Notes under the pieces: generated by a model | Told to the model about the DNA's origin: nothing | Database searches by the model: none | Seen by the model: only the letters and a program-made list of their open reading frames with translations | Position numbers and translations under genes: made by a program | Origin: Candidatus Dojkabacteria bacterium | Lineage (GTDB): Bacteria; Patescibacteriota; Dojkabacteria; SC72 | DNA: 64,000 bases | Direction of reading: 5' to 3' | NCBI GenBank assembly: GCA_012842045.1 | Contig: DUTP01000005.1 | Coordinates: 11,332-75,331, forward strand | Shown here: one piece after another, positions 1,939-44,631 of the stretch | Layout of the letters: each line of letters begins with the position of its first letter | Numbering within the stretch: the first letter of the stretch is position 1

Positions 1939-3285
1939 TTAGTTTATAAAGATGCTTAGACCCTCATGCTGACCACCAGGAGTTTTAACCTGTAAAGAAA
2001 GTGGAGATCCTGGCCCTGTCGTCAAATTCTTACTTGTAATATTTACAAAAGCTCCTGAACTTCGATCAAAAGTAAAGAATTTAGGCACATCGTAAGATGA
2101 GGCAGAGAAGTTAGCTGTAACACCTCCAAAATATACATTCTTTGTTTCATTGGTGTTCATATGAAGTTGCCAATTAGAGTGAGACAGTTTCATCTCTCCT
2201 GTAACTTCAACCTCGTTACTCTTTACACCCCCAACTTCAACCCAGAATTTTCCAACACAATCAGTACGGAATGTTGCTCCACCACCAATAGTACCAGTAG
2301 TTTGATTCAAACTCATACAACCATTCTGTCCGTAATGATATGTTCCATAGAATTTTTTGTCGTCCTGTCCCTCTGCATCTGGTGGATTCACTACTACGGA
2401 CTTCACAGGAACAGTATTTCCTTCTCCAAGATAAGCAATGTTTCTGGTATATGTTAATGTTACTGAAACAACCGGATTAGTAACTGAAACATTAGCAATT
2501 GCTGTTTTCCCATTAGCTGTTTTCACTGTAATAACAGCATTACCTGTCTTAACAGCAGTAACAACACCCTTACTATTTACAGTTGCTACTGAAGTATCAC
2601 TAGAAGACCAAGTAACAGCCTTATTAGAAGCATTTGCAGGCAAAACAGTTGCAACTAAAGTACCTGTATTACCCTTTCTTAAAGCTAAACTTGTTTTATC
2701 TAGTGTTACACCCGTAACTTCTACATTTGCAGGAGTTTCATCTTTCTTCTCTTCCTTCTTTGCCTCTTCCCACTGAGCAACTAAGATAAGATCTTTTGTA
2801 ACTGGTTGTGTAAAATCATACTCCTCACCATCTAAGAACCACCCTTTAAATGTAGCATTAGCCTTAGTAGGTCTTAATGGTATAGTAACAACATCATTTT
2901 CTTCTACTTCTATCTCCATTGATGATTTCCCATTATCTGGCATAAATGTTACCTTAAATGTTACAGCATCCTCTGGTATCCAGCTAGCTACTAATTTAAT
3001 ATCATTAGTAATCTCAGCTGAAGGTGCAAATGGTTGTCCATCTAATAACCAACCATTAAACTTAAACCCTTCTTTGGTTGGATCTTCTGGGAAATCAACA
3101 ACCTCTCCATCCTTAACAACAATCTGTTCAATAACAGTACCACCATCAGTATCAAAAGTTATAGTATATGTTTTTTCCTTCTTTAGGAAAAAGAATGCTG
3201 CTATAGCTGCAAGCAATAACAAAGCACCTCCTACAATGTAGAGAAGCTTTTTGTTTTTAAGAACTTCTTTTGGTTTGTTCTCCAT
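1939..3285 (-). CDS. Cell-surface protein with two Listeria-Bacteroides (Flg_new-type) repeats and a Big_2 (bacterial Ig-like) domain
   Basis: N-terminal TM anchor. Two ~65-aa repeats match the Listeria-Bacteroides repeat pattern: YTITFDTDGGTV...FKFNGWLLDGQPF...IKLVASW and FKVTFMPDNG...ATFKGWFLDGEEYDF...LILVAQW. A Big_2-like segment follows: VTGVTLDKTSLALRKGNTGTLVATVLPANASNKAVTWSSSDTSVATVNSKGVVTAVKTGNAVITV. Confidence 0.55.
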   Translation of the reverse strand: MENKPKEVLKNKKLLYIVGGALLLLAAIAAFFFLKKEKTYTITFDTDGGTVIEQIVVKDGEVVDFPEDPTKEGFKFNGWLLDGQPFAPSAEITNDIKLVASWIPEDAVTFKVTFMPDNGKSSMEIEVEENDVVTIPLRPTKANATFKGWFLDGEEYDFTQPVTKDLILVAQWEEAKKEEKKDETPANVEVTGVTLDKTSLALRKGNTGTLVATVLPANASNKAVTWSSSDTSVATVNSKGVVTAVKTGNAVITVKTANGKTAIANVSVTNPVVSVTLTYTRNIAYLGEGNTVPVKSVVVNPPDAEGQDDKKFYGTYHYGQNGCMSLNQTTGTIGGGATFRTDCVGKFWVEVGGVKSNEVEVTGEMKLSHSNWQLHMNTNETKNVYFGGVTANFSASSYDVPKFFTFDRSSGAFVNITSKNLTTGPGSPLSLQVKTPGGQHEGLSIFIN

Positions 3286-3363
3286 AGTTGAAATGTAAAA
3301 TTTAAATGATATCTAAATAATAGCATAAACAAGGGGGATTTCAAAAGTTCTCTTAAGCCTAGT

Positions 3364-3693
3364 ATGATATATTATAGTATAGAGATGAAAGAGTTTATAA
3401 CCAAAAACATAGAGAAAGTAGCTAAGGGGTTAAGTTTTGAGGATTGTGCTAATGATATCCCAGACTATACTTTTACTAAGGAAGAGGTTTCTACTATCTC
3501 ATACATCCAAAAAATGCTTCCTCTAGCATGTGCTAGATATCTCAAGAATGAAATTTTACTCGAGGATTTAGTTAGTAAAGCTAACTATATTATGTTTGAT
3601 AGGTATAACCCTAGTATGTTAAGTAGATTATTAAAAAAAGATCTTTGTGATTTTATAATGCTACTTGGAGAAGCTGATTACTGTTTAGAATAA
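3364..3693 (+). CDS. Hypothetical protein (109 aa)
   Basis: Open frame that converges on the ftsH stop. No motif recognised. Confidence 0.3.
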   Translation: MIYYSIEMKEFITKNIEKVAKGLSFEDCANDIPDYTFTKEEVSTISYIQKMLPLACARYLKNEILLEDLVSKANYIMFDRYNPSMLSRLLKKDLCDFIMLLGEADYCLE

Positions 3694-3694
3694 C

Positions 3695-5599
3695 TTATTT
3701 CTTCTCTATAAACAGTTCCTCAAACTCTTCTCTTGTAACAACTTCTTTCTCTAGTAGCAAGTCAACCAATTTCTCAACATACTCTTTCTGTTCTGTTAGA
3801 ACTTTCTTTGCATCCACATATGCTTCATCAATTAACCTCTTCACTTCAGCATCTATTGTCTTTGCTGTTTCCTCACTAAAGTCTCTGCCACCACCATATT
3901 TGTATCCTAGATGAGAAGTCTCATCCATATCACCATATTTAACCATACCTAACTTTTCACTCATACCGTATTTCATAACCATCTCTTTAGCTAATTCTGT
4001 TGCCTGTTCAATATCTGCAGAAGCACCTGAAGAAATATCATCCAAGAATATCTCCTCAGCAGCTCTACCACCAACACCACTTCTTAACCAAGCTAACATT
4101 TGAGCCTTGTAAAGAGTTTTTCTCTCTTTCTCTGGAATGTAAACTGTTACTCCTCCTGTCATACCTCTTGGAATAATGGAAACCTGCTCTACTGGGTCAG
4201 AACCTGGTGTAAATTTAGCAACAATCGCATGCCCTGCTTCATGATATGCTGTCTTCCTCAAATCCTCTTCCTCTGTCTCCCTATTTTTCTTTCTACCAAG
4301 TTTAACCTTTAAAAATGCTTCATCTATATCATCCTGCCCTATCTCCTTATCACCCTCCTGTGCAGCCATAATTGCTGCTTCATTGAGAATATTTTCTAAA
4401 TCTGCACCAGAATACCCTATTGTCTTCTTAGCAAGATCTTTTAGATTAACACCCTCTGCAAACTTCTTGTTCTTAGCATGCACCGCTAAAATCTCTTCTC
4501 TACCCTTAGCATCTGGCATATGAACTACAACCATCCTATCAAACCTACCAGGTCTTAAAATTGCTGGATCAAGCACATCTGGCCTGTTTGTAGCTGCAAG
4601 TACAATTACATTCTCCCTTTCTTCCAAACCATCCATCTCAACAAGAATTTGATTAAGAGTCTGTTCTCCTGCACCAGAATGAAGTACTGTACCTCTCTTC
4701 TTAGCAACAGCATCAATCTCATCGATAAAGATAATACATGGTGTAGTATTCCTTGCCTTCTTGAAAAGGTCTCTCACCCTTGAAGCACCAGCACCTACCA
4801 ACATCTCCTCAAATTCAGAACCAGATGTATGGAAAAATGGAACACCAGCTTCACCAGCGATAGCTTTTGCTAAGAGTGTCTTACCTGTACCCGGAGCACC
4901 AGCTAAAAGAACACCCCTTGGAATTCGTGCTCCCAAATCTCTGTATTTCTTAGGATTTTTAAGAAAATCCACAATCTCTGTTAATTCCTCTTTAACATCA
5001 TCAATACCTGCAACATCATCAAAAGATGTCCCTGTCTTCTTACCAAACAACATCCTAGCTTTACTCTCACCAAAATCCATAATCTTACCACCAGAAGCCT
5101 GCATATTTTTAATCATGAAAAACCCAAGTGTTACTGCTGCTGTTAAAAAGAGTAAAGTCAACACATCACCAAAAGATATCCCAACTTTCGGTTCATAGAA
5201 ATCATCTCCTAACTCTTTAATATCTATCTCTGCATCAGAGAGGACTTGATAAAAATCCATTCCTTGAGGTAATCTTGCATACTCTTTTCTAACAACATCC
5301 CTACCAGCAATCTTCTCTTCCTTTTCTAAAACAACCATATCATCTTTCAGAACAATCTTGTCATAGTCTTTCTCTGAAATACTTGTAATCACATTACTAA
5401 CGGAAACTTCCTCTCCTTTATAGGAAAGAAGACCATAAAGATACATACCTAGAGACACCAAAACTACTATACTTATAATAGCTGGGACACTAGGAAGCTT
5501 AACTCTTCTCCCAGTAGGCATCTTTCTCAAATCCACAACATATACATTCTTCTTATCTTCTGTCTTTTTATTCTTCTTTTTATCTTTCTGTTCGCTCAT
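3695..5599 (-). CDS. ftsH: ATP-dependent zinc metalloprotease FtsH
   Basis: Two N-terminal TMs, AAA+ Walker A ([23 protein letters not shown]), Walker B ([10 protein letters not shown]), second region of homology (SRR) and the zinc-binding HEAGHA motif. Lys-rich N-terminal extension. Confidence 0.95.
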
Positions 5600-36625: not shown

Positions 36626-37030
36626 ATGAAGAAAAGAGATAATAAACAACTCAAGAAAAATGGATATATTGCTCTAACAACAGTTTTAGTAATCATACCC
36701 CTACTCCTTGCAACAGGGATAGACTTAGCATACAGAAGTATAACGAATGCTCTTGTCAGCAAATTGGAGTTTGATCACAACATGTTAGAGGTAAATGCTG
36801 AATCTTGTTTAGAAGAAAGTGTTAGAAAGATAAAGTTTAATATTTTGTTTGAAGGAACATTGATAGTAGAACAACCAACATGGACTTGTAACTCTGTCAT
36901 ATCAAATAAACCAGGAGTAAGTGGTGTAAAGATAATAAATATACAGGCAAGTGATGGAAACCAGAATGTAGTATTACTTAATAAAGAATTAAATACAAAT
37001 ACAGATCCATTTGAAATCTCAAATATTTAA
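36626..37030 (+). CDS. Membrane-anchored pilus-associated protein (PilX/minor-pilin-like), hypothetical
   Basis: NGYIALTTVLVIIPLLLATG is an N-terminal hydrophobic helix. Operon position is between the pseudopilins and pilD. Confidence 0.4.
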   Translation: MKKRDNKQLKKNGYIALTTVLVIIPLLLATGIDLAYRSITNALVSKLEFDHNMLEVNAESCLEESVRKIKFNILFEGTLIVEQPTWTCNSVISNKPGVSGVKIINIQASDGNQNVVLLNKELNTNTDPFEISNI

Positions 37031-37622
37031 AAAAAAATTAAAGAAGGTTGATATTATTTTCATAGTTTGTTTTCTCCTTAGTGCTATATCTATACCTGTT
37101 GCCCTTTTTTTGAAGTCTAGCGATCTAAAGGGAATTCTTTTTTCAACCCTTCTACTAACTCCGTTATTTGGAGCTCTGTGGTATCTTGCATATTATGATT
37201 ACAAGAAGATGGAAGTTCAGCCTACTCTTTCTCTTGCTTTGATAATAGTTTTAGGAATTGTTAATATTTTAGCTTTCTTCTTTTGGAAGGATAATGAGTT
37301 TGGATATAATAATTTGTTGGGAGGTATTACTCTTGGTGTTATTTTTCAATTAATTGTTCTACTTACAAAAGAGAGGGGTCTAGGACAGGGAGATGTTAGA
37401 ATTGCAATTATATCTGGTTTATTAGTTGGTTTTGATGGTTTAACTCCTTGGTTATATATTACAATATTTTCTTCTTTGTTATATGGAATTATTATTGCTA
37501 TTAAGAGAAGAAAGTTTAGAGGTTTGAAAATACCGTTTGTACCTTTTATGGTGTTTGGGGTTGTTATTTTAATAATTTCTCATCTACACCTGACTCAAAT
37601 CCACTGTTTTGCCCAAATATAA
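37011..37622 (+). CDS. pilD: Prepilin peptidase (A24 family), short form lacking an N-terminal Zn-finger domain
   Basis: Polytopic. GLGQGDVRIAIISGLLVGF matches the catalytic (G)GGDVKL aspartate motif of A24 peptidases. Confidence 0.75.
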   Translation: MKSQIFKKKLKKVDIIFIVCFLLSAISIPVALFLKSSDLKGILFSTLLLTPLFGALWYLAYYDYKKMEVQPTLSLALIIVLGIVNILAFFFWKDNEFGYNNLLGGITLGVIFQLIVLLTKERGLGQGDVRIAIISGLLVGFDGLTPWLYITIFSSLLYGIIIAIKRRKFRGLKIPFVPFMVFGVVILIISHLHLTQIHCFAQI

Positions 37623-37667: not shown

Positions 37668-37704
37668 AGAGACAGATTCCACTTATTCTGTGAAATCTGT
37701 CTCT
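37668..37704. repeat. Perfect 11-bp inverted repeat (agagacagatt-N15-aatctgtctct) between the convergent pilD and downstream gene
   Basis: Read directly from the sequence. No T-run follows, so its role as a terminator is uncertain. Confidence 0.4.
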
Positions 37705-37742: not shown

Positions 37743-38999
37743 TTACAAGGAAAAATTCATTCTTTCCAAATAGCCTTCTGGAGCATCTTGCTTGTCCCAA
37801 TCCTCTATACCAAGGAGTTCCTCAAGACTTGCCTCTCCCTTTTCTCTTCTATCTTTCGCTGTTCTTATTAACAACTCTAATAGAAGGGCTTTTTCGAATT
37901 TCCCCCAGTGGTAGCCATCATAATAATGTCCAAAGAAAGACCTTTCATAAAAAGTAAACCATCGGCTAAGCCCTCTTTCAAGCTGAAGCTCTTCTGGATC
38001 CTTAACACCAAGATCAGCTGCTTTGTATAAGACAAAAAGCTTTGCAGCCTCAACCTGCTCTTTCTCTGTCCCTGCATATTTTCCTTTTGTTGAAGCAGTC
38101 TCTAAATCATCATCCTCGTTAATATGGGGTTCAGGCATATTTTCTTCAAGTAAAGATAATGCTTTTCCTAAGAAAAATAGTTCAGACCTATTTAAGTTAT
38201 TAAGAAGCTCTGGATTCTTAATAACTCCTGCATATTGACCTGCAACTCTTTTAGACCAAGATTCTGTATTTACTTCTTTATTTACTTCATTTATGAAAGT
38301 AGCATAGTCTTTTAACAGTCCAGGATATATATCATTGATTACTCTAAAACCTTCCCATCTTAGATAAGGAGATGCTTGCAAGTCACGCTCATTTCGATAT
38401 ATAGGAAGAATGTCTTCTTCCAATCTCTCCGAGATACTATCTCGCTTCTTAACGAGCTCTGGGTATATACTAAGCATTCTCTTAGTACTAAACCAATTAA
38501 TCCCAGAATTTTCTATAATCTCTTCTGCCCATTCTGGATGTTCATCTAAAATCCCTCCAATAGCTGCTGTAGTATCAGTAATACTATCTATTAATACTGG
38601 ATATAATTTATCCATATTGATAATAGTGTCTTCTAAACTTTTAAGTCTAGTAACATCTTCAAGTTGTTTCATCAATTCAGGTTGTGAGCCTTTGAGTATG
38701 TTTAGAATCCCAGGTTTCCACCCTGTTATTCTTTCTAAAGCTGGAGAAGTACACTCCTCTTCTTGATTCCAAGGCTCAAAAATCTCTGCTAATTCAGGAA
38801 AATTTTCCTTAATGTTTTCCTGTTGTTCTCGAAAAGTAGCAAGAGATGTCGTGAAATCATCAAGAGATCTTTCTTCTTGCTCTCCTGTAGGATCTCCTAC
38901 TACTATTAATCCTGAAAGAACCTCTTTAAGTTTTGCAGGTATCTCGTTTGAATCTTTTGATTCAGGGCTGGATAATTTCTCTAAAGCATTTGTTTCCAT
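37743..38999 (-). CDS. Hypothetical protein (418 aa), last gene of the co-directional MTase-REase block
   Basis: Soluble and acidic, no TM, no recognisable motif. Lies 90 bp downstream of the 245-aa ORF on the same strand. Confidence 0.4.
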   Translation of the reverse strand: METNALEKLSSPESKDSNEIPAKLKEVLSGLIVVGDPTGEQEERSLDDFTTSLATFREQQENIKENFPELAEIFEPWNQEEECTSPALERITGWKPGILNILKGSQPELMKQLEDVTRLKSLEDTIINMDKLYPVLIDSITDTTAAIGGILDEHPEWAEEIIENSGINWFSTKRMLSIYPELVKKRDSISERLEEDILPIYRNERDLQASPYLRWEGFRVINDIYPGLLKDYATFINEVNKEVNTESWSKRVAGQYAGVIKNPELLNNLNRSELFFLGKALSLLEENMPEPHINEDDDLETASTKGKYAGTEKEQVEAAKLFVLYKAADLGVKDPEELQLERGLSRWFTFYERSFFGHYYDGYHWGKFEKALLLELLIRTAKDRREKGEASLEELLGIEDWDKQDAPEGYLERMNFSL

Positions 39000-39089
39000 T
39001 GCTTTAAAAATAAAAATTTATTGTGGGGAGTATTCTATTGTAGCAAATATCAAGAGAGCAGGCAAGAGAAATTTCATTGGCAAAATCTA

Positions 39090-39827
39090 TTAATAAAAAT
39101 CATAAAACCACTCTATCTCACACCTAGGATATAGTTCTTTCATATCAAAGAGATTATTTAAATCTTCTATATTCTTTGCCTTAGATAATTTTTCTAAAAA
39201 GATTTTGTACTTCTCTTCCTTAATCTCCCATTCAGAATTAATAAATTGACCCCAAATAACAAGAATTTTTGTTTTAGGATCTCTAGTTCTCATATCTTTT
39301 AGGTATTCTTTTGGAAACAACCTCTTATACTCCTCCCTGTTATACAACCAACTACCTCCTTCTACATATTTAGCTTTGGGATATGTCTCTCTAACCTCCT
39401 CAAACATCTCTTTTAACTCAGCTAATCTTTTAGGTTTTTCACTTAAGGATAATGGTCCATTCTTACTCTTACCGTCATTGAGAAAATGTATCTTTACAAT
39501 ACCTTCTCCATTCTCATCTGCTACATACTTGTATCCAAAACAACCAAACCATTTTTTCTTTTTATCTGGATCTTGATAGTTTCGTATATGTAATTCATAT
39601 GCTACATCTACCATATTCTCTCCTTTTTCATACCTTTCTATTAGTTCTTTCCAATGTTTAGATTCTGGGTCAAAATCCCATGAATAGTTACCTATGAGGA
39701 AGAATATTGGTGTATATTTTTTAATAGATTCAATTATATCTATACCATCTATCTCACCTCTTTTAGAAGCATATTCAATAATCATGTGGAAGAGTTTTTT
39801 AGGATATAGTTCTTTTTTAGGTTGCAT
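39090..39827 (-). CDS. Hypothetical protein (245 aa) downstream of the restriction endonuclease
   Basis: Soluble. No recognisable motif. Same strand, 93 bp from the REase. Confidence 0.4.
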   Translation of the reverse strand: MQPKKELYPKKLFHMIIEYASKRGEIDGIDIIESIKKYTPIFFLIGNYSWDFDPESKHWKELIERYEKGENMVDVAYELHIRNYQDPDKKKKWFGCFGYKYVADENGEGIVKIHFLNDGKSKNGPLSLSEKPKRLAELKEMFEEVRETYPKAKYVEGGSWLYNREEYKRLFPKEYLKDMRTRDPKTKILVIWGQFINSEWEIKEEKYKIFLEKLSKAKNIEDLNNLFDMKELYPRCEIEWFYDFY

Positions 39828-39920
39828 TGAAAAATATATTTAAATCTTTACCTGGTGCGATTATATAACACCAGTAGAACTTATTTTACCATATTAGTAA
39901 TAGTGAGAACTAAAAGATTA

Positions 39921-40733
39921 CTACTTAATAACTTTATCGTAAAGATTATCAAACATCTTTTTTGTTTCGTTGCTTTCACTTAAGCTCGTCATATAATTAT
40001 TCAAGTCATCATAATTGATATTTGATAAAAACTCACTGAAAAATCTCTCTCCTCGTCGTATATTCGTAGATTCAGGAATATATGGATTGTTTTTCATTTT
40101 CTTATTATTAAAGAAAAATAAAATGGGTACTAAGCCATTTCTGTCTGTTATACCTAGCTCTTTTACTAAATATGCATATGTTTTGATAAATTTGCGGTTT
40201 ATATCGACAAATTTACCTGTATCGTGGTCATCATTATATTTGATTTCCAAATAATAATATGTACCTGTTGTTTTATTCTTAAATAATAGATCTATATCAT
40301 GCTTAAAAGTGTTTTGTTTTATATCAGTGTCTTCTAAAATACTTTGCTGTAATTTTGGGAACTCGGTAATACAATATCCTTCTGGCTCTAACTGACATTT
40401 ACTGATGTAGTTATCTATTCTACTTTCATTATTGTTTGAAAGCACAAAAGCACTACTCTTTTTGCCTGAATATTCAGCAACTATTTCATATTCTTCTTCG
40501 TTTTCAATAAGAAGTGACATTAGTTCTTCAATAAAATTACCTAATTGAATATTCATAGACTGCAGTATGCCACCAAAAATACGATAAGATTTCGGAATAA
40601 AATGTATTTTCTTTGTATGTTTATCATCAAGTTTCTTAATAGTTTCTTGACTACCCATTTTCATCAAGATATTTTTAACAACCTTGTTTATAAGTATTTT
40701 TACTTCATCGTTCATTTTTTTTGGAATATTCAT
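39921..40733 (-). CDS. Putative Type II restriction endonuclease (cognate to the adjacent MTase), PD-(D/E)xK-like
   Basis: Overlaps the MTase stop by 29 nt, the typical R-M arrangement. Candidate catalytic segment is HDIDLLF...YYYLEIKYNDD (D...ExK). At 270 aa it is close to R.HinfI (262 aa); homology was not tested. Confidence 0.5.
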   Translation of the reverse strand: MNIPKKMNDEVKILINKVVKNILMKMGSQETIKKLDDKHTKKIHFIPKSYRIFGGILQSMNIQLGNFIEELMSLLIENEEEYEIVAEYSGKKSSAFVLSNNNESRIDNYISKCQLEPEGYCITEFPKLQQSILEDTDIKQNTFKHDIDLLFKNKTTGTYYYLEIKYNDDHDTGKFVDINRKFIKTYAYLVKELGITDRNGLVPILFFFNNKKMKNNPYIPESTNIRRGERFFSEFLSNINYDDLNNYMTSLSESNETKKMFDNLYDKVIK

Positions 40734-41790
40734 ATCTTAAATTATTTATTGGTTTTAGTTTTTTACTTTTCTTAAAATAAAAATAATCCCAACCATTATT
40801 ATTTGTTCGATTGAGGTGTTTTGCCGACATCTTGTGAATCGATAAAACATCTTGTCCGTCATTAGCATAGCCGTCGCTTGTTAAAACTGCAATTTTGTCA
40901 CCTTTTTTGTTATAGAGTTGTTCACCAGTTTTCAAAAGCCCACTTTCTATTAATTGTTTTATACTAACTCTTGGTGGTTTAACTTCTAGTACTAAATTAT
41001 GAATGTCAGAATCATCAACCTTGACTTGTTTTATGCGCTTTTCGGCAGCCTTAATATATTTTTCCTCCATTTCAAAGCCGATATAATTACGGCCAAGTAG
41101 TTTTGCAACCGCACCAGTAGTTCCAGAGCCAAAAAATGGATCTAAAACAACATCATTTGGCTTGCTCGTAGAAAGAATTATTTTATAGAGTAGTTTTTCT
41201 GGCTTTTGTGTTGAATGTAGTTTCTTTCCGTTTCTATCTTTTAATCGTTCACCACCAATACAAATACCAATATCCCAGATGCTTTTATCCTGTTTACCAC
41301 CATTAAGGTGCTTCATCGTCTTGTAATTAAAAGTGTATTTTGATTTTTGATCTTTAGAGCACCAGAGTAAAGTTTCGTGAGAGTTTTGATATCTTGTACC
41401 ACTAAAATTTGGCACAGCATTAGGTTTTGACCAAACAATATCGTTAAGAATCCAAAAACCGAGATTCTGCATGATATAACCCAGACGATAGATATTTTGA
41501 AAAGAGCCAATCACCCAAATAGCTCCATCTGGCTTTAATATTCGTCTACACTCTCGTAGCCATTTTTCGCTAAAATCGTCGTACTCTTTATATGTATTAA
41601 ACTTATCCCATTTATCTTTAACACCATCAAATTTTGAACCATCTGTACGTAATAGTTCGCCTTCAGTTTGCATCCAATATGGTGGATCAGCAAAAATCAA
41701 GTTAATAGAATTGTCAGGGATTAGTGATAGGTTTGCTAGACAGTCACCAGCAATAATAGTGTTAATATATTTGCTTAAATTTTTACTCAT
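40705..41790 (-). CDS. Beta-class N6-adenine DNA methyltransferase, CcrM/M.HinfI family (GANTC-type), with a C-terminal extension domain
   Basis: Motif IV is IFADPPY near the N-terminus. Motif I is VLDPFFGSGTTGAVAKLLGRNYIGFE near aa 220-245 (beta-class order). Collinear strings match CcrM: WILNDIVW, HETLLW, HSTQKPEKLL. A ~110-aa C-terminal tail resembles the CcrM/HinfI non-catalytic domain. Confidence 0.9.
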   Translation of the reverse strand: MSKNLSKYINTIIAGDCLANLSLIPDNSINLIFADPPYWMQTEGELLRTDGSKFDGVKDKWDKFNTYKEYDDFSEKWLRECRRILKPDGAIWVIGSFQNIYRLGYIMQNLGFWILNDIVWSKPNAVPNFSGTRYQNSHETLLWCSKDQKSKYTFNYKTMKHLNGGKQDKSIWDIGICIGGERLKDRNGKKLHSTQKPEKLLYKIILSTSKPNDVVLDPFFGSGTTGAVAKLLGRNYIGFEMEEKYIKAAEKRIKQVKVDDSDIHNLVLEVKPPRVSIKQLIESGLLKTGEQLYNKKGDKIAVLTSDGYANDGQDVLSIHKMSAKHLNRTNNNGWDYFYFKKSKKLKPINNLRYEYSKKNER

Positions 41791-41932
41791 AGAACACCGT
41801 AATGATGTCTTATGTCGTGGGACAGAGTCGATATAAGACCTTATTATTGTATCATAACTTTTATTTTTAGAAAAGCGAAAACAAGACGATGTTACTACTC
41901 GTTTCTAATTCTCATCACTATTAATTAGGAGA

Positions 41933-42354
41933 TGGTGGAGACGATGGGAATTGAACCCATGTCCAAAAGTATCATCTAGTACCATATACAAACATATCTA
42001 ATCTTGTTTAGTAAGATATACCTAAAAGACTAGACAAAAAGTATATCCCCTCAGTTATACTTCTCAATCAACTACCCTACTGACCTGATAGAAGATCGTA
42101 CCCTAATAACGACTGTCTTAGATTCCTCATTAGGGAAAAGAATAAAAGACACTAACCAAAATCAATTAGTTAGACTGATGCAAAATTGTATGCATAGGCT
42201 GGAGCTGCAAATGCTGCTCTTAGTCCTGCGCTTACTTTATCTGCAAAAGCGACGATTTTGTTTTTTACACTTATCTTGTGTGTTAAGAATAACGAACTTA
42301 ACAAACGGTTTGTGATAACTAGAATCAAGCTTCTGTCGATAGCCTGACGTCCCC
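41933..42354 (-). ncRNA. ssrA: tmRNA (ssrA)
   Basis: 5' end GGGGACGUCAGGCUAUCGACAG... (conserved GGxUUCGAC block). 3' end ...GGACAUGGGUUCAAUUCCCAUCGUCUCCACCA is nearly identical to the E. coli tmRNA 3' end GGACGCGGGUUCAACUCCCGCCAGCUCCACCA. The acceptor stem includes the G3·U70 alanine identity pair. Internal tag ORF begins after ...AUCGUC: GCU UUU GCA GAU AAA ... GCA UCA GUC UAA CUA A. Confidence 0.85.
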
Positions 42355-42970: not shown

Positions 42971-43780
42971 TTATTTTAAACTATGACCAAGAGACTTATT
43001 ACTTAGCGCTATTGTATTAAAAAGTATTATCGCATCCAAACCATCTAGGTTCTCTCCAGTCCAAACAATATTACCATCCTCTTTTTGTCTCTTTTCTAAT
43101 ACTACTTTTCCATCAACAAGAATATGATCATCCTGCACTTCTGCATCAATATCATGATATCTCTTGAAAGCTGCTAAAAGAAAAGGTTCCGATTCTTCAA
43201 GATATGGTAACTCAAAAGAATATGAAAGTATATTTGTTTTAACATCTTTCTTGCTATTCCCTATTTCCCATTTAATAATATTTGTCTCAACTATTTCTGA
43301 GCGTATTCCAGGTACATTAATTCCCACATGTTTAAGATACTCAACTAAGCATTCTTGAAAAAAGAGCGCTTGCCAAGCATGATATACATTATGTATATCT
43401 AATCTATCCATTCTTGCATTTAAGTGACGGGGTTCTCCTTCATGAGCATATATATACATCCACACACCATTTCCAGGGTGAGGCATCAATGATTTTAAGT
43501 AATAGGTGCCATTTTCATTCTCTCCCCACTCATCACGGCCATAATTCCCTTCAGGAAAATATCTTTCTTTAATCTTTTCAATTTCAAGTAAGCAATCTAA
43601 GTATTTATCTTTACTCAACTCCAAACCTTCTTCCAACCTTGGTGATAAACCTTTCCTACCTCCATACCACTCGATATCATATTCAACATGTTCATAGTTA
43701 CCCTTTCGGAATATAACATAAGGAATATCAAAATTCTCAAATATTGGCTCAGCAGAATCCTTTATATCTTTTGGATCCAT
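42971..43780 (-). CDS. Hypothetical protein, member A of a tandem paralog pair
   Basis: 269 aa. Shares collinear motifs with the adjacent 263-aa ORF: KERYFPEGNYGRDEW vs KDKYFPNGYQGQDEW; GIRSEIVETNI vs GIRSEVLGTDI; NILSYSFELPYLEESE vs NILSWSFKLPYFEGSE. Confidence 0.45.
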   Translation of the reverse strand: MDPKDIKDSAEPIFENFDIPYVIFRKGNYEHVEYDIEWYGGRKGLSPRLEEGLELSKDKYLDCLLEIEKIKERYFPEGNYGRDEWGENENGTYYLKSLMPHPGNGVWMYIYAHEGEPRHLNARMDRLDIHNVYHAWQALFFQECLVEYLKHVGINVPGIRSEIVETNIIKWEIGNSKKDVKTNILSYSFELPYLEESEPFLLAAFKRYHDIDAEVQDDHILVDGKVVLEKRQKEDGNIVWTGENLDGLDAIILFNTIALSNKSLGHSLK

Positions 43781-43839: not shown

Positions 43840-44631
43840 TCAATAACACCCCTTAGCAAGTTTCGTATTAGTATTTGCTATCATATTAAAATAGTTTATC
43901 ACTATATCAGGATCTGTAATATTCTCTACTACCCATATCTTCCTTCCTTGTTCATCTGACTTTACTTTAGGAATATTTTTATACCTACTCTCCATCAATT
44001 TATCGACAACAACATGCTCAGAACCTTCAAAATATGGAAGTTTAAAAGACCAAGAAAGGATATTCTTTCTAAATTCTACTACTCTACCATCAGCCTTTGT
44101 TTGCTCACTTATATCTGTACCAAGCACCTCAGAGCGAATACCCCAAGCACCTATACCTACATATCCTAGATATGTTAGTAAACATTCATAAAGAGCAAGA
44201 GCATGCTCTGGAGATTTGATACTACGTGGTATATCTACCAACCAATCACTTTCAAGTTCACTATTCTTTTCTCCTTCACGAGCAAATATACGCAGTTGTA
44301 ATCTCGTATCAGGATTTGGTATCACATTTAAACATGTTAAAGAATTAGTACCATCAAGATACCGTCTCCATTCATCTTGCCCTTGATACCCATTAGGAAA
44401 ATATTTATCTTTAACCAGTTCGATAGCAAAACGACATTCTTCAAGGCTTTCTATAGGTACTCCCAACCCTTCAGATAATTTATTAGTCAGAGCAGATTCA
44501 TGTCTTTGACCCCAAGTTATCCAATAGATGTTGTCTCCTTTAGATGTTCTCTGAGCAATATTAGGAATATCGACATCCAACATGATTCCTGGATCTTTCA
44601 TATCTACAATATCATGTTTCTCTATGTCCAT
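43840..44631 (-). CDS. Hypothetical protein, member B of a tandem paralog pair
   Basis: 263 aa. Paralogous to 42971..43780 (see motifs there). Neither has a TM or signal peptide. Confidence 0.45.
   Translation of the reverse strand: MDIEKHDIVDMKDPGIMLDVDIPNIAQRTSKGDNIYWITWGQRHESALTNKLSEGLGVPIESLEECRFAIELVKDKYFPNGYQGQDEWRRYLDGTNSLTCLNVIPNPDTRLQLRIFAREGEKNSELESDWLVDIPRSIKSPEHALALYECLLTYLGYVGIGAWGIRSEVLGTDISEQTKADGRVVEFRKNILSWSFKLPYFEGSEHVVVDKLMESRYKNIPKVKSDEQGRKIWVVENITDPDIVINYFNMIANTNTKLAKGCY

What the first reader, a model, noticed from the sequence alone, without database searches (positions are those of the whole stretch)
37743..41790. HinfI/CcrM-like R-M pair co-directional with two uncharacterised downstream genes, ending at the tmRNA 3' end
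The MTase is unmistakably of the CcrM/M.HinfI beta-class family (DPPY first, FGSGTT last, plus the C-terminal tail). The overlapping 270-aa ORF is the likely REase, with a size close to R.HinfI. Two further unknown genes (245 and 418 aa) follow on the same strand with ~90-bp gaps, suggesting an extended defence operon. The block starts 143 bp from the 3' end of ssrA, a classic genomic-island insertion site. No integrase is present, so this could be an old, fixed island.
Basis: partly seen in the sequence, partly recalled or inferred. Interest (0 to 1): 0.5.

Follow-up and report, generated by a model that had tools for sequence, protein, structure and literature searches.

The report
HinfI-type restriction-modification cassette inserted after ssrA
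A complete but ordinary two-gene HinfI-type restriction-modification system sits exactly at the end of the tmRNA gene of a Candidatus Dojkabacteria genome, and the two unknown genes after it are resident neighbours, not part of a defence operon.

Summary
On the minus strand the order is tmRNA (41933-42354), a 361-aa methyltransferase, an overlapping 270-aa ORF, then 245-aa and 418-aa ORFs.

- **R-M pair.** The methyltransferase is a beta-class CcrM/M.HinfI-type enzyme. The 270-aa protein is a full-length HinfI-family restriction enzyme (NCBIfam 373 bits, cutoff 175). This is a genuine type II pair, presumably GANTC-specific.
- **Downstream genes.** The "extended defence operon" idea fails. p245 and p418 occur without any R-M genes in relatives about 94-97% identical in DNA. 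p245 also lies at unrelated loci in other Dojkabacteria. None of 80 homologous R-M loci has either gene beside it.
- **Insertion.** Junctions show a roughly 2.08-kb two-gene cassette placed exactly after the tmRNA CCA end. It is flanked by a 5-bp CACCA repeat and has no integrase.
- **Hot spot.** The interval between ssrA and the pilus operon varies among Dojkabacteria species (0.7-4.7 kb). One species carries a cytosine-5 methyltransferase there instead.
- **Age.** The cassette is polymorphic among close relatives, so it is not an old fixed island.
- **GANTC.** The site is not specifically avoided.

Verdict: a new member of a known kind, of low to moderate interest.

The parts
41933..42354 (-). 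ssrA (tmRNA) gene, intact. Its CCA 3' end at 41933 is the proximal junction of the insertion.
   Evidence: ARAGORN; Rfam RF00023 108.9 bits, model 1-374/374. Homology to relatives L029, L015, L025 and others stops exactly at 41933.
41791..41932 (-). Cassette leader of 142 nt with no homologue in relatives. It contains an extended -10-like TGATACAAT (41854-41846) and one GANTC site (41825-41829) ahead of the MTase start.
   Evidence: Sequence. The promoter reading is inferred only; the consensus scan did not call it.
40705..41790 (-). Beta-class N6-adenine DNA methyltransferase of CcrM/M.HinfI type (361 aa), with a catalytic domain and a C-terminal RAMA domain. Presumed target GANTC.
   Evidence: PF01555 237 bits and PF18755 48 bits. 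PADLOC MTase_II PDLC03216 554 bits. NCBIfam CcrM model 473 bits, below its 830 cutoff. Full-length alignment to CcrM 6PBD, E 1.6e-114.
39921..40733 (-). HinfI-family type II restriction endonuclease (270 aa; possibly 264 aa from the second Met at 40715). It overlaps the MTase stop.
   Evidence: NCBIfam NF045831 372.8 bits against a cutoff of 175, profile positions 1-263 of 264. PADLOC REase_II 325 bits. More than 1000 homologues carry PF09520. All invariant columns are kept, including D146, D148, E163 and K165.
39858..39920 (-). Cassette tail of 63 nt with no homologue in relatives. It contains a TGGTAAAAT extended -10-like motif (39891-39883). A 6-bp hairpin CTGGTG/CACCAG has its 5' arm here (39874-39869) and its 3' arm at 39857-39852, spanning the junction.
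   Evidence: Sequence. Homology with L007 and L025 starts at about 39848, and with L015 at about 39857.
39853..39857 (-). Distal copy of CACCA, the last 5 nt of the tmRNA (41937-41933). This is the distal junction, forming a direct repeat around the 2,075-bp insert.
   Evidence: In L015 and L027 the tmRNA ...CTCCACCA is followed directly by GGTAAGGATTTTGAATATATTTTTTCA and then the p245 start. In the window ...ATCGCACCA is followed by GGTAAAGATTTAAATATATTTTTCA and then the p245 ATG.
39828..39852 (-). Ancestral ssrA-to-p245 spacer. This is resident sequence, not part of the cassette.
   Evidence: Homologous to the 27-nt spacer that follows the tmRNA directly in L015 and L027.
39090..39827 (-). 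p245, a resident Dojkabacteria-specific gene that is not part of the R-M unit. The predicted fold is a helical N-terminal domain plus a GNAT-like C-terminal domain.
37743..38999 (-). p418, a resident, fast-evolving, all-helical lineage-specific gene next to the pilus operon. It is not part of the R-M unit and its function is unknown.
37668..37704 (-). 15-bp-stem hairpin between the convergent p418 and prepilin peptidase genes, likely a bidirectional terminator ending the p418 transcript.
   Evidence: Terminator scan and inverted repeat I24.

Best explanation
The feature is a horizontally acquired, self-contained type IIP restriction-modification cassette of the HinfI family, about 2.08 kb, in a Candidatus Dojkabacteria (CPR) chromosome.

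**How it works (inferred from family knowledge).**
- The upstream beta-class methyltransferase puts N6-methyl groups on the adenine of GANTC on both strands.
- The downstream HinfI-family endonuclease cuts unmethylated GANTC in incoming phage or foreign DNA.
- Its start overlaps the methyltransferase stop, so the two are probably translationally coupled and the methylase is made first.
- Like other type II pairs, it may also stabilise itself by post-segregational killing.

**How it got there.** The cassette was inserted precisely after the CCA end of ssrA, between ssrA and the resident gene p245. This slot carries different cargo in nearly every sampled Dojkabacteria species.

**The other two genes.** p245 (GNAT-like fold) and p418 (helical, unknown) are resident genes that became co-directional neighbours through the insertion. 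At most they receive read-through transcription.

**Shown versus inferred.**
- Shown: the family identities, the intactness of both genes, the junctions, and the presence/absence pattern in relatives.
- Inferred: GANTC specificity, enzymatic activity, expression, and the mechanism of insertion.
For: **Family identity and intactness.** (MTase; REase full length, all invariant residues kept).

**The two genes form a unit.** The M-then-R co-directional adjacent or overlapping arrangement recurs in essentially all of 80 homologous loci from many phyla.

**Insertion.**
- L029 (about 94% nt identity in flanks) has tmRNA, a 172-aa gene, a HAD hydrolase, then p245 instead of the R-M pair.
- L007 (97%) has HAD, a 179-aa gene, p245, then p418.
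- L015 and L027 have the tmRNA CCA end joined directly to the same spacer that precedes p245 in the window.
- CACCA is duplicated at both junctions.

**Foreign origin.**
- The nearest non-identical REase and MTase relatives are only 77-81% identical. The one named is Candidatus Saccharibacteria; a 65% hit is Candidatus Nomurabacteria. Flanking genes are 92-96% identical to L029.
- REase GC is 0.274 against 0.338 for the window.

**Hot spot.** The interval from ssrA to the prepilin peptidase is 0.7-4.7 kb with different genes in L013-L029. L013 carries a C5-cytosine MTase immediately downstream of ssrA.
Against: - No methylation or cleavage data exist. GANTC specificity rests on family membership alone.
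- GANTC is not specifically depleted in the 64-kb window. O/E is 0.66 under a first-order model, the 6th lowest of 16 comparable NN-N-NN palindromes, and 0.90 under a third-order model.
- The flanking repeat is only 5 bp. No terminal inverted repeats, integrase or transposase were found, so the insertion mechanism is unknown.
- Replacement of other cargo by homologous recombination through the ssrA and p245 flanks cannot be excluded.
- No HinfI-family REase occurs on any plasmid or phage in the collections searched, so no vehicle is identified.
Confidence: 0.85

Rival explanations
1. Extended four-gene defence operon. The MTase, REase, p245 and p418 act together as one defence system acquired as a single island.
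For: All four genes are co-directional with roughly 90-nt gaps. No strong terminator was called between the REase and p245. The whole interval from ssrA to the pilus operon varies among species.
Against: - p245 and p418 are present at about 94-98% identity in relatives that lack the R-M pair (L007, L008, L029, L025, L009).
- p245 occurs at unrelated housekeeping loci in L001-L003.
- None of 80 homologous R-M loci has either gene.
- Neither gene has a PADLOC hit.
- The junction sequence places p245 outside the inserted segment.
Confidence: 0.03
2. Orphan CcrM-like regulatory methyltransferase with a decayed or non-functional neighbouring ORF.
For: The MTase is highly similar to CcrM over its full length. 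PADLOC's orphan-MTase model also scores 457 bits. GANTC is not specifically avoided.
Against: - The REase is full length against the HinfI equivalog model, at twice the curated cutoff, and keeps every invariant residue.
- The MTase scores best on the type II R-M model, and it falls below the CcrM equivalog cutoff (473 against 830).
- The gene is absent from close relatives, which does not fit a core cell-cycle regulator.
Confidence: 0.05
3. The R-M pair is ancestral at the ssrA site, or is the remnant of a larger integrase-borne ssrA island. Relatives then lost or replaced it, and the integrase and att repeats decayed in this genome.
For: - ssrA is a classical integrase target (established knowledge).
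- A gapped resemblance (ATCG....CACCA against ATCGTCTCCACCA) at the distal junction could be a decayed att copy.
- Several related cassettes sit beside tRNA genes.
Against: - Among the Dojkabacteria-type ssrA loci recovered (L013-L029), only the window lineage has it, counting the 99% identical L028 as the same lineage.
- The L015 and L027 junction is a clean empty site.
- Only 5 bp are repeated exactly, and no integrase pseudogene-sized space exists: 142 nt and 63 nt of non-coding sequence.
- The closest R-M relatives are only 77-81% identical at the protein level, the one named being Candidatus Saccharibacteria.
Confidence: 0.1

Closest known systems
HinfI restriction-modification system (R.HinfI / M.HinfI, GANTC; NCBIfam NF045831, Pfam PF09520 with PF01555)
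   Same: The REase matches the HinfI equivalog model over its full length at twice the cutoff. The MTase is the matching beta-class enzyme with a RAMA tail. The M-then-R co-directional overlapping layout is the same as in 80 related loci.
   Different: The host is a CPR bacterium. The nearest non-self relatives in the databases searched are at most 78% (REase) and 81% (MTase) identical. Specificity and activity were not measured.
CcrM, the cell-cycle-regulated orphan GANTC methyltransferase of Alphaproteobacteria (PDB 6PBD; NCBIfam NF050803)
   Same: Full-length alignment at E 1.6e-114, with the same domain order and C-terminal domain.
   Different: It scores 473 bits against an equivalog cutoff of 830. 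It is paired with a restriction enzyme and is strain-variable rather than core.
Mobile forms of R-M gene complexes (Furuta, Abe and Kobayashi 2010, PMC2853133): insertion of R-M-only units with target duplication, and R-M plus integrase units in tRNA genes
   Same: An R-M-only insert, detected by comparing close genomes, is flanked by a short direct repeat next to a tRNA-like gene.
   Different: There is no integrase, no long (30 bp or more) duplication and no terminal inverted repeats. The repeat is only 5 bp and the target is the very end of ssrA.
Genomic islands integrated at the 3' end of ssrA (established knowledge of tmRNA-gene integration sites)
   Same: The position is directly at the ssrA 3' end, and the cargo varies between relatives.
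   Different: The cargo is tiny (0.7-4.7 kb), no integrase appears in the locus inspected here, and there are no long att repeats.

Membership tests
HinfI-family type II restriction endonuclease (NF045831 / PF09520) | Profile score above the curated equivalog cutoff, over the full length | tested here: met
   372.8 bits against a cutoff of 175. Residues 7-268 match profile positions 1-263 of 264. PADLOC REase_II 325 bits.
HinfI-family type II restriction endonuclease (NF045831 / PF09520) | Conservation of family-invariant residues, including the D...D...ExK-like block | tested here: met
   All 75 invariant columns of a 15-sequence alignment are kept, including H145, D146, D148, E163 and K165. 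That these residues are catalytic is my inference.
HinfI-family type II restriction endonuclease (NF045831 / PF09520) | Adjacent cognate beta-class GANTC-type methyltransferase | tested here: met
   The MTase lies immediately upstream and overlaps. The same pairing occurs in about 73 of 80 related loci; in the others the contig ends before the MTase position.
HinfI-family type II restriction endonuclease (NF045831 / PF09520) | Cleavage of G^ANTC, blocked by m6A | not testable with these tools
   Needs enzyme assays or methylome data.
Beta-class N6-adenine DNA MTase, CcrM/M.HinfI group | PF01555 domain with motif IV (DPPY) before motif I (FGSGTT), plus a C-terminal RAMA domain | tested here: met
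   PF01555 237 bits and PF18755 48 bits. Motif order read from the sequence. Full-length alignment to 6PBD.
CcrM orthologue (NF050803 equivalog) | Score above the equivalog cutoff; a core, orphan gene | tested here: not met
   473 bits against a cutoff of 830. It is paired with an REase and absent from close relatives.
Integrase-mediated ssrA genomic island | Located at the 3' end of ssrA and absent from close relatives | tested here: met
   Homology with relatives ends exactly at the tmRNA CCA. Empty or alternative sites occur in L015, L027, L029 and L025.
Integrase-mediated ssrA genomic island | Integrase gene in the island | tested here: not met
   Only the M and R genes lie in the 2.08-kb insert. 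No integrase was found among the nine genes scanned from the prepilin peptidase to p263. The called genes of the same contig 7-10 kb to either side carry none either.
Integrase-mediated ssrA genomic island | Direct repeat of a 3' segment of ssrA (typically more than 7-20 bp) at the distal end | tested here: inconclusive
   Only CACCA (5 bp) is exact. A gapped 9-of-13 resemblance is possible.
Multi-gene defence operon including p245 and p418 | Co-occurrence of the accessory genes with the R-M pair across genomes | tested here: not met
   None of 80 R-M loci has them. p245 and p418 occur without R-M.
GNAT acyl-CoA N-acyltransferase superfamily (for p245) | GNAT fold with an acyl-CoA binding motif | tested here: inconclusive

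The most novel reading that the evidence does not exclude
Integrase-less two-gene R-M cassettes of this HinfI clade in CPR bacteria may home to the 3' ends of tRNA and tmRNA genes by an unrecognised mechanism.

- Three independent insertions in different Dojkabacteria start within about 10 nt of the ssrA CCA end: the window at +0, L025 at +3 and L029 at +8.
- Six of 11 of the closest related cassettes lie within 400 bp of a tRNA gene.
- Another species carries a different MTase, probably part of an R-M system, in the same slot.

If this is real, the ssrA 3' flank would be a dedicated, recombinase-free exchange site for small defence and accessory modules in ultra-small genomes.
Probability: 0.12. 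Interest if true: 0.55.

Novelty: new member of a known kind. Interest (0 to 1): 0.25.

Why it matters
This is a clean, base-pair-resolved example of a minimal R-M cassette gained in a reduced CPR genome. CPR bacteria rarely carry CRISPR, and R-M systems are thought to be a main defence for them. It also shows that the few bases after ssrA are a recurrent exchange point in Dojkabacteria.

For annotation, the R-M pair should be called as a two-gene HinfI-type system. p245 and p418 should not be labelled as defence genes. None of this changes what is known about R-M biology.

Tried and rejected
- **att-like repeats.** I looked for copies of the tmRNA 3' end downstream of the REase, both exact (6 nt or more) and fuzzy 14-mers. 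None was found in the window, L031 or L035; only the 5-nt CACCA is repeated.
- **Terminal inverted repeats.** None lies at the cassette ends.
- **Conserved element ends.** Nucleotide homology with the closest cassettes stops at the coding region, 41798-39924.
- **Vehicles.** The REase has no match in 72,556 plasmids or 50,697 phage records.
- **GANTC avoidance.** The apparent depletion against dinucleotide shuffles (157 against 240) is shared by many unrelated palindromes and almost vanishes under a third-order model. I rejected it as evidence.
- **p245 and p418 families.** Pfam, NCBIfam and PADLOC give no significant hits. The RPW8 and glycogen phosphorylase matches are below cutoff and were rejected.
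- **L002 neighbour.** I tested whether the 358-aa gene next to p245 in L002 is a p418 homologue. It is not.
- **afdb50 fold search.** The library was unavailable.
- **Pfam discrepancy.** The Pfam copy used for hmmscan returned no PF09520 hit for the REase, although precomputed annotations list PF09520 for it and for all homologues. I relied on NCBIfam and PADLOC.
- **Other MTases.** No second DNA MTase lies in the window.


Full report
**Observation.**
- MTase 40705-41790 (361 aa).
- A 270-aa ORF at 39921-40733, overlapping the MTase end.
- A 245-aa ORF at 39090-39827.
- A 418-aa ORF at 37743-38999.

ARAGORN and Rfam (RF00023, 108.9 bits, full length) place the tmRNA gene at 41933-42354 on the same strand. 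That leaves 142 nt between its CCA end and the MTase start.

**Organism and context.** Named homologues of the window's proteins are Candidatus Dojkabacteria (CPR). The same locus is present in public assemblies. On one side lies a type IV pilus operon ending in a prepilin peptidase (37011-37622, PF01478), convergent with p418. On the other side of ssrA lie three unknown genes (p173, p269, p263). dnaN and dnaA lie about 10 kb away.

**The R-M pair.**
- *MTase.* It has PF01555 and a C-terminal RAMA domain. It scores 554 bits on a PADLOC type II MTase model. It aligns over its full length with CcrM (6PBD, E 1.6e-114). It falls below the CcrM equivalog cutoff (473 against 830 bits). It is therefore a CcrM/M.HinfI-type enzyme but not a CcrM orthologue.
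- *REase.* The 270-aa protein matches the NCBIfam "HinfI family type II restriction enzyme" equivalog over its full length (372.8 bits, cutoff 175) and a PADLOC REase_II model. More than 1000 homologues, all annotated PF09520, exist in many phyla. The window protein keeps every invariant residue of a 15-sequence alignment, including an HDxD...ExK block.
- *Gene order.* In 80 metagenomic loci with a homologous REase, the MTase lies immediately upstream, co-directional and adjacent or overlapping, wherever the contig reaches that far.

This is a complete, apparently intact type IIP R-M pair. GANTC specificity is inferred from the families and was not measured.

**The two downstream genes are not part of it.**
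- *p245.* It has 39 homologues at 34-94% identity, Dojkabacteria wherever named.
  - In L001, L002 and L003 it sits among housekeeping genes with no R-M nearby.
  - In close relatives it sits at the same locus without R-M. L007 (97% nt identity) has an alpha/beta hydrolase, a HAD hydrolase, a 179-aa gene, p245 and p418. L009 has HAD, p245 and an HTH gene.
- *p418.* It has only seven detectable homologues among 1.84 billion representatives.
  - In L005 its 34%-identical homologue again lies beside the prepilin peptidase end of the pilus operon.
  - In L029 a more distant paralogue occupies the same position.
- *Linkage.* None of the 80 homologous R-M loci contains p245 or p418. Neither has a PADLOC, Pfam or NCBIfam hit.

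**Where the cassette begins and ends.** I scanned species-representative genomes for the tmRNA 3' end and recovered 18 loci. BLAST and junction read-outs show four things:
- Homology of relatives to the window stops exactly at the tmRNA CCA (41933).
- In L015 and L027 the tmRNA end ...CTCCACCA is followed directly by GGTAAGGATTTTGAATATATTTTTTCA and a p245 remnant.
- In the window the same spacer (GGTAAAGATTTAAATATATTTTTCA, 39852-39828) precedes the p245 ATG, and is itself preceded by ...ATCGCACCA.
- The sequence between these points (41932-39858; 2,075 bp) holds only the M and R genes plus 142 nt and 63 nt of non-coding sequence. It is bracketed by CACCA at 41937-41933 and 39857-39853.

The simplest reading is an insertion at CACCA^GG with a 5-bp duplication or microhomology. 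No longer att-like repeat, terminal inverted repeat, integrase or transposase was found. Nucleotide similarity to the nearest related cassettes (about 75%) is confined to the coding region.

**A hot spot, not an old fixed island.**
- L029 (about 94% nt identity in flanks) carries a 172-aa Cys-rich gene and a HAD hydrolase between ssrA and p245. That insert begins 8 nt after the CCA.
- L025 carries a 238-aa gene and a 179-aa gene, beginning 3 nt after the CCA.
- In the species where both ends lie within the fetched locus, the interval from ssrA to the prepilin peptidase ranges from about 0.7 to 4.7 kb with largely different genes.
- The ssrA-downstream cargo in the loci examined includes a peptidase S51, HTH proteins, an HD protein and a Schlafen/AlbA_2 protein. 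In L013 it includes a C5-cytosine MTase (PF00145, 308 bits) convergent with an unannotated 296-aa ORF directly downstream of ssrA.
- The HinfI-type pair is found only in the window lineage. L028 is 99% identical, and further copies of the same contig exist.
- Its closest relatives are only 77-81% identical at the protein level. The one named is Candidatus Saccharibacteria; a 65% hit is Candidatus Nomurabacteria. Flanking genes are 92-96% identical to L029.
- REase GC (0.274) is at the low edge of the window's genes; the window mean is 0.338.

The cassette is therefore a relatively recent, polymorphic acquisition.

**GANTC counts.** The window has 157 sites against 240 +/- 15 in dinucleotide shuffles. 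The same degree of depletion is seen for TCNGA, AANTT, TGNCA and others. GANTC ranks 6th of 16 comparable palindromes, and O/E is 0.90 under a third-order model. There is no specific avoidance. For a recently acquired system in a host whose sites are methylated, this is not informative.

**Mechanism.** Steps 2-5 below are inferred.
1. The M and R genes are intact, and the R start overlaps the M stop (shown).
2. A promoter in the 142-nt leader drives M-R transcription. An extended -10-like TGATACAAT lies at 41854-41846, and a GANTC site lies in the leader.
3. M methylates GANTC and R cuts unmethylated GANTC.
4. Translational coupling favours methylase expression first.
5. p245, which in L015-type genomes starts 27 nt after the tmRNA, is now separated from ssrA. 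It may be expressed by read-through, or from a TGGTAAAAT motif in the cassette tail.

A strong hairpin at 37668-37704 ends the p418 transcript.

**Comparison with known systems.** This is a member of the HinfI R-M family (see the membership table). It resembles the R-M-only insertions with target duplication catalogued by Furuta et al. 2010 (PMC2853133) and islands at ssrA. It differs in lacking an integrase and long repeats. R-M systems in CPR bacteria are already widely reported. No HinfI-family REase was found on plasmids or phages in the collections searched.

**A lead, not a result.** Among the closest related cassettes, several lie next to tRNA genes:
- L031: the tRNA-Ile 3' end is 72 nt upstream of M.
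- L035: the tRNA-Glu 3' end is 58 nt upstream of M.
- L030, L110 and L079: a tRNA lies 90-380 bp beyond R.

This is 6 of 11 counting the window, well above the few percent expected. The count is post hoc and the loci may not be independent.

**Verdict.** The finding is real and the R-M call is correct. The ssrA insertion idea is correct, but only for the two R-M genes. The four-gene defence operon and the "old fixed island" readings are not supported. This is a new member of a known kind, of low to moderate interest.

Noticed in passing
window 39125-39140 and 39800-39815; L015 3690-3800; L027 5010-5110: p245 contains a perfect 16-nt direct repeat (AAAGAACTATATCCTA, encoding KELYP near both termini). 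In L015 and L027 the gene is deleted exactly between these repeats, leaving an N-terminus/C-terminus fusion remnant right after the tmRNA. p245 is therefore dispensable in at least one lineage.
   Followed up: partly
L013 about 3070-4930 (133-1990 nt downstream of the tmRNA): Another Dojkabacteria species carries a C5-cytosine DNA methyltransferase (PF00145, 308 bits) convergent with an unannotated 296-aa ORF. That ORF is a possible restriction enzyme with no family hit. Both lie in the same slot directly downstream of ssrA.
   Followed up: partly
whole window: GGNCC is the most depleted NN-N-NN word in the window (22 observed, about 68 expected; O/E 0.32). No cytosine methyltransferase is encoded in the 64 kb. 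This may reflect a Sau96I-type system elsewhere in the genome, or past exposure to one.
   Followed up: partly
L031 272-508; L035 3788-3921; L030 2097-2546; L110 4795-5101; L079 5789-5954: Several of the closest homologous HinfI-type cassettes lie within 60-380 bp of tRNA genes. In two of them the tRNA 3' end is directly upstream of the MTase, as with the tmRNA here. None has an obvious integrase or repeat.
   Followed up: partly
window 42971-43780 and 43840-44631: Two tandem paralogous genes of unknown function (269 and 263 aa, no family hits) lie upstream of ssrA. Relatives carry one or the other: L029 has the p263 type and L013 the p269 type.
   Followed up: no
window 42170-42268 (tmRNA tag region): ARAGORN predicts an unusually long 32-residue tag ending in ...AYAYNFASV. 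The real resume codon is probably further downstream, perhaps giving ADKVSAGLRAAFAAPAYAYNFASV. Even so, the tag end is atypical compared with the common ...LAA.
   Followed up: no
L028 (JAXGTM010000260.1, 2,503 bp): A contig 99% identical to window 39573-42076 (tmRNA end, MTase, REase and p245 start) is deposited in a MAG labelled Atribacterota. This is almost certainly a binning error.
   Followed up: no
L112 2922-4008: In one related locus the MTase is split into two ORFs (154 and 121 aa) while the REase is intact. This is either an assembly error or a decaying system.
   Followed up: no
L005 4363-6879; L029 852-2712: The p418 family occurs as tandem divergent paralogues (411 and 398 aa in L005), or as a 396-aa variant plus a 201-aa gene in L029. 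It is always next to the prepilin peptidase end of the type IV pilus operon. This hints at a fast-evolving pilus-associated or surface-related role.
   Followed up: partly
L002 9807-10669; L001 8444-10741: In more distant Dojkabacteria the p245 homologue lies 118 bp (L002) or about 1.5 kb (L001) downstream of tRNA-Val(GAC). p245 therefore tends to sit just after a tRNA-like gene even outside the ssrA locus.
   Followed up: no
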